Source: Escherichia phage AidaStucki_Bas93. Taken from it: 64,000 nt of DNA. A program made the position numbers and the translations under genes. A model generated the notes under the pieces. The model was not told the origin of the DNA. It saw nothing but the letters and a program-made list of their open reading frames with translations, and did no database searches. The stretch lies in the sequence record PQ850593.1, one strand, 5' to 3'. Shown here in pieces: positions 41,912 to 42,475 of this stretch (position 1 is the stretch's first letter; every line of letters begins with the position of its first letter).

Positions 41912-42475
41912 TTAGTAAGACACATCACCACTTGAGTGGGACATGTTGCTCTTGACAAAGTAGCAATACTTGCCAAGACCTTCATTAATTTCTTGAAGCA
42001 TACTTTGATCGACTGGATAAGTGGCTAAATCGCCATCAAACTCATCCATCTTCTCAATAATACACAACAAGGTCATGCACATATCAGAGAGCATACCGTC
42101 CATGTCTAGATCAGCGTTACCCTCTGAGAACCAAGCATGAGAGAGGTAGTTAGCTGCTGTAGCATCCACTTTAACACAGTGGTAACGCATACGTTCAGCA
42201 ATACGATCTCCTACTTGTCGTGCGTAATCTTCCAGCTCGTCAAACATACCATGAACACCCTGAAATCCTGCACCAGAGACGTTCCAGTGGTAGTTTTTAG
42301 CTTTGATGTGCAAGAGTTCCATATTAGCTTGTAAGCAGCTCAGGATGTGTTCTAGGCTGTTTCCGCTAATCATGCCTTGCATTGTTTCAAGGCGAGAGAT
42401 TGAAAGCTCAGACCGGTCTAACATGCTGTAGCTGTCACGACCAATCTCAGGTAAATCAAAGACATTCTTATGCAT
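41912..42475 (-). CDS. Dps-like ferritin-fold protein
   Basis: KNYHWNVSGAGFQGVHGMFDE closely matches the Dps motif KxxHWNxxGxxFxxxHxxxD; start set to internal Met with GGAG RBS, could be up to 42523. Confidence 0.6.
   Translation of the reverse strand: MHKNVFDLPEIGRDSYSMLDRSELSISRLETMQGMISGNSLEHILSCLQANMELLHIKAKNYHWNVSGAGFQGVHGMFDELEDYARQVGDRIAERMRYHCVKVDATAANYLSHAWFSEGNADLDMDGMLSDMCMTLLCIIEKMDEFDGDLATYPVDQSMLQEINEGLGKYCYFVKSNMSHSSGDVSY

What the first reader, a model, noticed from the sequence alone, without database searches (positions are those of the whole stretch)
41912..42475. Dps-like ferritin-fold protein encoded by a phage
KNYHWNVSGAGFQGVHGMFDE is a close match to the ferroxidase-centre region of bacterial Dps. 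Dps is a stationary-phase nucleoid-protecting protein and is uncommon in phage genomes. Here it sits among nucleotide-metabolism genes, suggesting roles in iron or oxidative-stress management, or DNA compaction during infection.
Basis: partly seen in the sequence, partly recalled or inferred. Interest (0 to 1): 0.45.

Follow-up and report, generated by a model that had tools for sequence, protein, structure and literature searches.

The report
Phage Dps mini-ferritin, already annotated
The gene is a genuine Dps-type iron-oxidising mini-ferritin carried by a phiEco32-like E. coli phage; it was annotated as a Dps-family member in close relatives in 2008, so it is real but not new, and its role in infection has never been tested.

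Summary
Window 41912-42475 (minus strand) is a 187-aa ORF with a GGAG ribosome-binding site and a strong terminator hairpin after the stop codon. Sequence evidence (Pfam Ferritin above cut-off, every PDB hit a Dps) and fold evidence (top 50 Foldseek hits all Dps, rmsd 1.2 A to Dlp-2) place it in the Dps family. All five ferroxidase ligands and the adjacent Trp align with those of E. coli Dps and are invariant among its phage relatives. It is under strong purifying selection.

The window is a Kuravirus-like podophage, 98.8% identical to Escherichia phage Bas92. The protein is 98.9% identical to phiEco32 gp67, annotated "member of the Dps family". Papers on SU10 and Privateer already discuss this gene, so it is already known.

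The protein is acidic (pI 4.7, net charge -15) and has no Lys/Arg-rich tail. The usual label "DNA binding protein" is therefore probably wrong. An Fe2+/H2O2-detoxifying mini-ferritin acting during phage DNA synthesis is the best reading.

Three points remain unexplained:
- a small gp68-like gene sits immediately upstream of Dps in eight phage lineages;
- Dps lies next to anaerobic ribonucleotide reductase genes in sister genera;
- one CsCl-purified virion proteome (Privateer) detected the protein.

No functional data exist.

The parts
41912..42475 (-). Dps-family (mini-ferritin) coding sequence, 187 aa, orthologue of phiEco32 gp67
   Evidence: ORF and translation. Pfam PF00210, PHROG 3636 and PDB hits are all Dps. 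AF2 model with core pLDDT above 85, and the Foldseek top 50 are all Dps. 98.9% aa identity to phi32_67, 'member of the Dps family'. dN/dS 0.02 against phiEco32.
42194..42289 (-). Ferroxidase-centre segment, residues 63-94: H63, W64, H75, D79 (one subunit) and D90, E94 (the two-fold partner)
   Evidence: These residues align with E. coli Dps H51/W52/H63/D67/D78/E82 and Listeria H31/W32/H43/D47/D58/E62. They are invariant in 16 phage homologues.
42356..42475 (-). N-terminal extension, residues 1-40: acidic, with no Lys/Arg cluster. It carries a clade-conserved S-x-x-R-[LM]-[DE]-x-M motif around R28.
   Evidence: Charge count is 4 K/R against 6 D/E, pI 4.95. R28 is invariant and M32 nearly so. 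The predicted helix 18-37 has low confidence, pLDDT about 55. It evolves about four times faster than the core: pN 0.30 against 0.077 versus ECBP2.
42485..42488 (-). GGAG ribosome-binding site, 9 nt upstream of the ATG
   Evidence: Read directly from the sequence.
41877..41904 (-). Intrinsic-terminator-like hairpin (12 pairs, loop of 4, then a T-rich tail) beginning 8 nt after the Dps stop codon
   Evidence: Only 2 such sites were found in 2.4 kb, against 1.2 expected by chance. Function as a terminator is inferred.
42468..42797 (-). gp68-like gene (109 aa, phrog_10984, no Pfam family). Its stop overlaps the Dps start by 8 nt. It is a conserved upstream partner of Dps.
   Evidence: Homologues lie immediately upstream of Dps in ECBP2, P59, LAh_6, GAP52, BUCT695 and two metagenome contigs. 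The AF2 model is low confidence and shows a small SH3/Tudor-like barrel.
41674..41853 (-). Context: 59-aa hydrophobic protein (phrog_9296) immediately downstream of the terminator
41390..41665 (-). Context: thioredoxin
   Evidence: Pfam PF00085, E=3.5e-13.
40718..41374 (-). Context: flavin-dependent thymidylate synthase ThyX
   Evidence: Pfam PF02511, E=8.9e-44.
43080..43613 (-). Context: dCTP deaminase
   Evidence: Pfam PF22769, E=3.6e-34.

Best explanation
The gene encodes a catalytically competent Dps-family mini-ferritin made during the middle (replication and nucleotide-metabolism) phase of infection by a phiEco32-like podophage. Shown here: it has the Dps fold, all inter-subunit ferroxidase ligands, a real ribosome-binding site and terminator, and is under strong purifying selection; its orthologue in SU10 is translated. 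Inferred: like cellular Dps, it assembles into a 12-subunit shell. That shell would oxidise Fe2+ at sites formed between two subunits, preferentially using H2O2, and store the Fe3+ inside. This would remove both Fenton reagents from the cytoplasm while phage DNA and dNTPs are being made. A phage copy makes sense because the infected cell's own transcription is taken over, so it may be unable to induce its own OxyR-dependent dps. This is inference from general knowledge of phiEco32 and E. coli. Neighbouring enzymes either can produce H2O2 (the flavoenzyme ThyX, from my own knowledge) or, in sister phages, are oxygen- and iron-sensitive (NrdD/NrdG). Because the protein is strongly acidic and has no basic tail, it probably does not bind or compact DNA by itself. 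The label 'DNA binding protein' looks like a name transferred from the family rather than a demonstrated property.
For: Family and fold. Ligands H63/H75/D79/D90/E94 and W64 align with the E. coli and Listeria ferroxidase residues and are invariant in the phage family. Purifying selection: 20 synonymous against 2 non-synonymous differences versus phiEco32, and core pN 0.077 against pS 0.745 versus ECBP2. Expression: the SU10 orthologue (96.8% identical) was detected by MS with 35.8% coverage and sits in the middle gene class (PMC4281155). Context: ThyX, thioredoxin and dCTP deaminase flank it here. The gene is directly followed by anaerobic RNR nrdD in GAP52 and BUCT695, lies close downstream of nrdD/nrdG in LAh_6, and abuts a short ORF annotated as anaerobic RNR in P59. 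No DNA-binding tail: pI 4.72, net charge -15, N-tail 4 K/R against 6 D/E, C-tail 0 K/R. The same antioxidant reading has been proposed for Dps genes of gut and Lactobacillus phages (PMC8008677; PMC6669764).
Against: No biochemical or genetic data exist for any phage Dps in the literature searched. Dodecamer assembly could not be modelled. The acidic residues that line the iron-entry pore in Listeria Dps (D121/D126/D130) do not align one-to-one; the phage family has an invariant P-V-D-Q motif there instead. Kuraviruses encode no RNR or other obvious iron enzyme, so the RNR link cannot be the whole story for this phage. The ThyX-H2O2 link rests on my own knowledge; the literature search did not return a supporting paper. 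The conserved N-terminal motif and the conserved gp68-like partner are not explained by a plain antioxidant role.
Confidence: 0.62

Rival explanations
1. It is a DNA-binding, DNA-compacting protein, as its usual annotation says. It would coat replicating or newly injected phage DNA to shield it from nucleases or to organise it for packaging.
For: The family name and PHROG 3636 label 'DNA binding protein'. It sits among replication genes. A near-neutral to basic SH3-like partner, gp68-like (14 K/R against 12 D/E by my count from the sequence), is co-encoded and could in principle supply DNA affinity.
Against: pI 4.72 and net charge -15 per subunit, with no Lys/Arg-rich N- or C-terminal tail. 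From established knowledge, Dps proteins lacking such tails, such as Listeria Dps and the B. anthracis Dlp proteins, do not bind DNA, and Dlp-2 is the closest structural match. The gp68 fold assignment is weak: pLDDT 62 and no Foldseek hit below E=0.01.
Confidence: 0.1
2. It is a virion-associated (packaged) protein, carried in the prolate head and delivered with or ahead of the genome. It would either protect encapsidated DNA from iron-mediated damage or act at once on entry.
For: The Dps homologue was one of only ten phage proteins detected by MS in CsCl-purified Privateer virions (PMC7881722). The gene is conserved across the whole C3-morphotype podophage group. BFVD contains Dps-fold matches within proteins named 'Prohead protease' and other long fusions from uncultured phages. 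That hints that some phages route ferritin-like domains into capsids.
Against: The gene is a middle gene in the replication module, not in the late structural module. The SU10 MS sample was only PEG-precipitated and also contained DNA polymerase and thioredoxin. The SU10 cryo-EM and MS study names gp20-24 as the internal ejection proteins and never mentions Dps (PMC9509320). A 250 kDa, possibly iron-loaded and therefore dense, particle could co-band with phage in CsCl; this is inference. The 'Prohead protease' names in BFVD were not verified.
Confidence: 0.1
3. It is chiefly an iron chaperone or oxygen scavenger serving phage iron- and oxygen-sensitive nucleotide enzymes (class III RNR NrdD/NrdG). 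In Kuraviruses, which lack RNR, it is retained for a residual general role.
For: The order gp68-like, Dps, nrdD is directly contiguous in GAP52 and BUCT695, and BUCT695 adds grcA. nrdD and nrdG are close upstream in LAh_6.
Against: The window and Bas92 encode no RNR, yet the gene is under very strong purifying selection there. In 7-11 the gene follows thyX instead. Adjacency within a dense nucleotide-metabolism cluster is weak evidence of a specific partnership.
Confidence: 0.15
4. It is a non-catalytic four-helix-bundle protein that has kept only the Dps scaffold.
For: It is highly diverged from cellular Dps: the NCBIfam Dps equivalog scores only 34.5 bits against a cut-off of 114. Only 7 representative clusters reach E<=1e-30 in the exhaustive search.
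Against: All five metal ligands and the Trp are invariant down to 48% identity, while surrounding positions vary.
Confidence: 0.03

Closest known systems
phiEco32 gp67 (phi32_67, YP_001671812.1) and its orthologues SU10 CDS67 and Bas92_0051
   Same: 98.9% amino-acid identity, the same length (187 aa), and the same position between gp68 and gp66/thioredoxin/ThyX. It is annotated 'DNA binding protein; member of the Dps family'.
   Different: Essentially nothing; this is the same gene in a sister phage. No functional study of any of these orthologues was found.
Tail-less cellular Dps proteins: Bacillus anthracis Dlp-2 (1jig), B. subtilis MrgA (2chp), Listeria innocua Dps (1qgh)
   Same: The Dps four-helix bundle with a short BC helix: rmsd 1.2 A over 137 columns to 1jig. 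The inter-subunit ligand set H/H/D(E)/D/E plus Trp matches.
   Different: Only about 20-27% identity. The phage protein has a 40-residue acidic N-terminal extension with its own conserved motif and a different CD-loop/pore motif (P-V-D-Q). Tyr replaces the conserved C-terminal Trp (K-x-x-W becomes K-x-C-Y). It has five cysteines, with C133 nearly invariant.
E. coli Dps (1dps), the host's own protein
   Same: The same family and the same ferroxidase residues.
   Different: 19% identity. It scores far below the NCBIfam equivalog cut-off, so it is not a captured host gene. It lacks the Lys-rich N-terminal tail (K5, K8, K10) that mediates DNA condensation by the host protein (plus established knowledge).
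Dps-like genes of other phages: Lactobacillus myophages, 'Gratiaviridae' and other gut phages, Streptomyces, Campylobacter CP21 and Synechococcus S-SRM01
   Same: E. coli and Listeria Dps both match PHROG 3636, the family the window protein falls in. An antioxidant, iron-sequestering role has been proposed on the same reasoning. Records of these phage groups are listed.
   Different: They are separate lineages, below 35% identity to this protein, with different genomic contexts. S-SRM01, for example, has it among porin and tail-fibre genes.

Membership tests
Dps (DNA-protection-during-starvation / mini-ferritin) family | Significant sequence similarity to the ferritin-like domain, with Dps proteins as best matches | tested here: met
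   Pfam PF00210 scores 31 bits against a cut-off of 24.5. Fifty-eight of 59 PDB hits are Dps. The family profile reaches E=6.5e-15 over the full domain.
Dps (DNA-protection-during-starvation / mini-ferritin) family | Four-helix bundle with a short BC helix in the long loop | tested here: met
   The AF2 model has helices 41-65, 72-98, 107-112 (BC), 125-150 and 154-177, with core pLDDT 85-96. The Foldseek PDB top 50 are all Dps, with TM up to 0.92 on the target.
Dps (DNA-protection-during-starvation / mini-ferritin) family | Inter-subunit ferroxidase ligands: two His and one Asp/Glu on helices A/B of one subunit, plus Asp and Glu on helix B of the partner, and the adjacent Trp | tested here: met
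   H63, H75, D79, D90, E94 and W64 align with E. coli H51, H63, D67, D78, E82 and W52. They are invariant in 16 homologues.
Dps (DNA-protection-during-starvation / mini-ferritin) family | Assembly into a hollow 12-mer with 23 symmetry | not testable with these tools
   Only monomer prediction was available. This needs SEC-MALS, native MS, cryo-EM or a multimer prediction.
Dps (DNA-protection-during-starvation / mini-ferritin) family | Fe2+ oxidation (H2O2 preferred over O2) and iron-core formation | not testable with these tools
   This is a biochemical assay.
Dps (DNA-protection-during-starvation / mini-ferritin) family | Acidic residues lining the ferritin-like three-fold iron-entry pore | tested here: inconclusive
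   Listeria D121/D126/D130 align with A150/P154/S158. Acidic D146, D148 and the nearly invariant D156 lie nearby, within an invariant P-V-x-Q context. Without a 12-mer model the pore lining cannot be assigned.
DNA-binding subset of Dps (E. coli Dps type) | A flexible Lys/Arg-rich N- or C-terminal tail, or a positively charged surface | tested here: not met
   The N-tail (residues 1-40) has 4 K/R against 6 D/E, and the C-tail has 0 K/R. The whole protein has pI 4.72 and net charge -15.
Orthologue (equivalog) of enterobacterial Dps | A score above the NCBIfam NF006975 equivalog cut-off | tested here: not met
   34.5 bits against a cut-off of 114, and only residues 52-96 match. It is a diverged phage lineage, not a recently captured host gene.
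Classical ferritin / bacterioferritin | An intra-subunit di-iron centre (paired E and ExxH motifs) and a 24-mer-type fifth helix | tested here: not met
   No classical ferritin or bacterioferritin appears among the top sequence or fold hits. The single E53-x-x-H56 is not conserved: H56 is Y or R in homologues.
Anti-phage defence or counter-defence proteins (PADLOC models) | A match to any PADLOC model | tested here: not met
   No hit for Dps, gp68-like or the 59-aa neighbour.

The most novel reading that the evidence does not exclude
The Dps gene is half of a conserved two-gene module, gp68-like small beta-barrel protein plus Dps, with translationally coupled or abutting reading frames. The module is kept across at least eight lineages of C3-morphotype podophages and is often joined to nrdD. 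In this reading the acidic Dps shell is recruited by its partner and by its clade-specific N-terminal motif to a specific site. That site could be the phage replication/dNTP-synthesis machinery or, as the Privateer CsCl proteome hints, the virion itself. It would then act as a targeted iron and peroxide sink rather than a free cytoplasmic antioxidant.
Probability: 0.15. Interest if true: 0.55.

Novelty: already known. Interest (0 to 1): 0.22.

Why it matters
As a finding it adds little. The gene has been annotated as Dps-family in phiEco32 since 2008 and has been noted in at least two later phage papers. Its modest value is as a pointer. Dps genes recur in about 0.3-0.6% of sequenced phages across unrelated lineages, are under strong selection, and have never been tested. 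A simple knockout and ferroxidase study in a tractable E. coli phage, such as the BASEL Kuraviruses, would show whether lytic phages need to manage iron and peroxide during replication. It would also correct a widespread 'DNA binding protein' or 'integrase' mis-annotation.

Tried and rejected
1. Longer TTG start at 42523: rejected. It has no RBS, and all annotated orthologues use the ATG.
2. Classical ferritin or another four-helix-bundle family: rejected by the sequence and fold ranking.
3. Recent capture of the host dps gene: rejected. Identity to E. coli Dps is 19%, and the score is far below the equivalog cut-off.
4. Defence or anti-defence role: no PADLOC match.
5. Fold of the gp68-like partner: the AF2 model is poor (pLDDT 62). 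Foldseek gave only non-significant Tudor/PWWP/SH3-like matches (E>=0.016), so no function is assigned.
6. P0032, a 1156-aa protein with 20 matched stretches in the exhaustive search, is a tandem-repeat artefact and not a Dps.
7. Longer Dps-domain proteins as possible capsid-targeted fusions: P0095 and P0128 lie on contigs too short to show context. P0128 carries DUF6321 (unknown function) and its C-terminal part matches PHROGs of unknown function. Nothing could be concluded.
8. Literature search for ThyX oxidase and H2O2 production returned nothing usable, so that link is marked as my own knowledge.
9. Literature searches for functional work on any phage Dps found only annotation-level remarks.

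Full report
**1. What is at the coordinates**

The minus strand of window 41912-42475 carries a 187-aa ORF beginning MHKNVFDLPEIG... and ending ...HSSGDVSY. It contains the quoted peptide at residues 60-80.

A GGAG Shine-Dalgarno sequence lies at 42485-42488, 9 nt upstream of the ATG. The ATG overlaps the stop codon of the preceding 109-aa gene by 8 nt. A 12-bp hairpin with a T-rich tail begins 8 nt after the stop codon, at 41904..41877 on the minus strand.

The alternative upstream TTG start at 42523 has no RBS and is not used in any annotated orthologue.

**2. Where the window comes from**

Megablast of 40000-45000 gives 98.8% identity over 100% of the query to Escherichia phage JacquesWildberger_Bas92. 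It gives 97.7% to phage LAMP and 92-94% to many phiEco32/SU10-like phages. The window is therefore a Kuravirus-like podophage with a prolate head (C3 morphotype).

By tblastn the protein is 99.5% identical to Bas92_0051 and 98.9% identical to phiEco32 phi32_67. The RefSeq record for phi32_67 reads "DNA binding protein; member of the Dps family".

Three papers bear on this gene:
- The SU10 genome paper calls the orthologue CDS67, "contains a DPS domain". It lists it among the middle genes, notes that it is present in all five C3 phages then sequenced, and detected it by MS with 35.8% coverage (PMC4281155).
- The Privateer paper found the homologue among ten proteins in CsCl-purified virions and states that its function is unverified (PMC7881722).
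- The SU10 cryo-EM paper does not mention it and names gp20-24 as the internal ejection proteins (PMC9509320).

**3. Is it a Dps?**

Sequence evidence:
- Pfam PF00210 scores above its gathering threshold, though only over residues 55-107.
- PHROG 3636 scores E=1.7e-54 over the whole domain.
- phmmer against PDB returns 59 hits, 58 of them Dps-family proteins. The best are MsDps2, MrgA and Dlp-2 at E~3e-9.
- A profile of 16 phage homologues raises this to E=6.5e-15 with end-to-end alignments.

Fold evidence: the AF2 model has mean pLDDT 79, with 85-96 in the core. It shows helices A (41-65), B (72-98), the short BC helix (107-112), C (125-150) and D (154-177). The top 50 Foldseek PDB hits are all Dps, for example Dlp-2 at rmsd 1.2 A over 137 columns.

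Ligand evidence: in a MAFFT alignment with E. coli Dps and Listeria Dps, the residues correspond as follows.

| Phage protein | E. coli Dps | Listeria Dps |
|---|---|---|
| H63 | H51 | H31 |
| W64 | W52 | W32 |
| H75 | H63 | H43 |
| D79 | D67 | D47 |
| D90 | D78 | D58 |
| E94 | E82 | E62 |

All six positions are invariant in 16 phage-family sequences down to 48% identity.

**4. Selection and divergence**

Against phiEco32 there are 20 synonymous and 2 non-synonymous differences, giving dN/dS 0.02. Against ECBP2 the core has pN 0.077 with pS 0.745 (saturated). The N-terminal 40 residues evolve about four times faster, with pN 0.30.

An exhaustive profile search of 1.84 billion cluster representatives found 3355 Dps-like proteins at E<=1e-3 but only 7 at E<=1e-30. 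The phage lineage is thus small and well separated from cellular Dps. It also fails the NCBIfam equivalog for enterobacterial Dps, at 34.5 bits against 114. It is not a recently captured host gene.

**5. What differs from textbook Dps**

- The protein is very acidic: pI 4.72, with K+R minus D+E equal to -15.
- The 40-residue N-terminal extension has 4 basic and 6 acidic residues. The C-terminal tail has no basic residue.
- From established knowledge, E. coli Dps condenses DNA through Lys5/8/10 in its N-tail, and tail-less Dps proteins such as Listeria Dps and the Dlp proteins do not bind DNA. The "DNA binding protein" label is therefore most likely inherited from the family name.
- The extension carries a clade-specific motif, S-x-x-R-[LM]-[DE]-x-M with R28 invariant. 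It is predicted with low confidence as an extra helix.
- The CD-loop and pore region has an invariant P-V-x-Q with a nearly invariant D, instead of the Asp triad of Listeria Dps. Whether the iron-entry pore is conserved is unresolved.

**6. Genomic context**

Here the gene order along the minus strand is: dCTP deaminase, a 69-aa ORF, gp68-like, Dps, the terminator hairpin, a 59-aa hydrophobic protein, thioredoxin, then ThyX.

A gp68-like gene (phrog_10984, no Pfam family) lies immediately upstream of Dps in these lineages, with 29-37% identity among the distant genera and a conserved H-R-D-[MK]-L...D-x-V-x-W...G core:
- Kuravirus
- Suseptimavirus ECBP2
- two metagenome contigs
- Privateervirus P59
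- Lahexavirus LAh_6
- Crifsvirus GAP52
- Libingvirus BUCT695

In 7-11 the gp68-like gene is four genes away.

In GAP52 and BUCT695, Dps is directly followed by the anaerobic ribonucleotide reductase gene nrdD, and BUCT695 also has grcA. In LAh_6, nrdD and nrdG are just upstream. Kuraviruses have no RNR.

The gp68-like model is poor (pLDDT 62). It resembles a small SH3/Tudor-like barrel, without any significant structural match.

**7. Mechanism proposed**

Shown: the fold, the ligands, selection, expression of the SU10 orthologue, and the nucleotide-metabolism context.

Inferred:
- It assembles as a 12-mer.
- It oxidises Fe2+ using H2O2 or O2 and stores the iron as mineral.
- This removes Fenton chemistry from the cytoplasm while phage DNA is replicated and dNTPs are made.
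- A phage copy is needed because the host's OxyR-dependent induction of dps may be unavailable once host transcription is taken over.

The same antioxidant logic has been offered for gut-phage and Lactobacillus-phage Dps genes.

Rivals:
- DNA binding is disfavoured by the charge.
- Virion packaging rests on one CsCl proteome. Against it are the middle-gene position, the PEG-only SU10 sample, the silence of the cryo-EM study, and possible co-banding of a dense 250 kDa particle.
- Dedicated service to NrdD/NrdG cannot apply to RNR-less Kuraviruses.
- A non-catalytic scaffold is contradicted by the invariant ligands.

**8. How rare, how new**

tblastn with this protein finds 136 of 50,697 phage records: Kuravirus and relatives, Grimontviridae, Lahexavirus, and some Streptomyces and Synechococcus phages. 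Listeria Dps finds 171 records: Streptomyces, Lactobacillus, Campylobacter, Clostridium and others. E. coli Dps, Listeria Dps and the window protein all match PHROG 3636.

Dps in phages is therefore uncommon but well precedented, and this particular gene has been annotated as such since 2008.

Verdict: real, correctly identified, already known, with function untested. Interest is low. A modest open question remains around the conserved gp68-Dps(-nrdD) module and the virion-proteome signal.

Noticed in passing
window 42468-42797 (-); also L012:279-608, L004:3139-3423, L005:3109-3462, L013:2187-2456, L014:2190-2459, L008:716-1033, L010:623-943: A small protein of unknown function (phi32_68-like, phrog_10984, no Pfam family) sits immediately upstream of the Dps gene, overlapping or abutting it, across eight lineages of C3-type podophages. 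In two metagenome contigs it is more conserved (72-75% identity) than the Dps next to it (39-44%). The predicted fold is a low-confidence SH3/Tudor-like barrel.
   Followed up: partly
L013:2957-5089, L014:2959-5414, L005:1-2942: In sister genera (GAP52, BUCT695, LAh_6) the Dps gene is contiguous with, or close to, anaerobic ribonucleotide reductase genes nrdD and nrdG. In BUCT695 a grcA-like glycyl-radical cofactor gene is also present. The Kuravirus in the window has none of these.
   Followed up: partly
GenBank records listed (e.g. MW741821, PV018828, MN715356, KP308307, MZ398243): The Dps orthologue is annotated 'integrase' in many deposited Kuravirus genomes. This is evidently a propagated annotation error: the protein has a ferritin-like fold and no recombinase features.
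   Followed up: no
BFVD hits (A0A6J7XDU5, A0A6J7WPK9, A0A6J7WIS1, A0A6J5N5R9 and others); P0128 and P0095: Several 290-760-aa proteins of uncultured tailed phages contain a Dps-fold region. Some of them are named 'Prohead protease'. One metagenomic protein (P0128) joins Ferritin to DUF6321, and another (P0095) has two Dps domains. If the names are right, some phages may fuse ferritin-like domains to capsid-maturation proteins. The contigs were too short to check.
   Followed up: partly
window 41877-41904 (-): A strong terminator-like hairpin sits in the middle of the long minus-strand middle-gene cluster, directly after Dps. This suggests a transcription unit boundary or attenuation point between Dps and the 59-aa protein, thioredoxin and ThyX genes.
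   Followed up: no
window 40359-40715 (-): A 118-aa ORF corresponds to what related records annotate as 'DNA ligase' or 'NAD-dependent DNA ligase'. It is far too short for a complete ligase and is presumably a fragment or stand-alone domain.
   Followed up: no
window 42870-43079 (-) compared with L001:4991-5606: phiEco32 has three small ORFs (phi32_69-71) between dCTP deaminase and gp68. The window and Bas92 have only one. This is a small indel-prone spot next to the Dps module.
   Followed up: no
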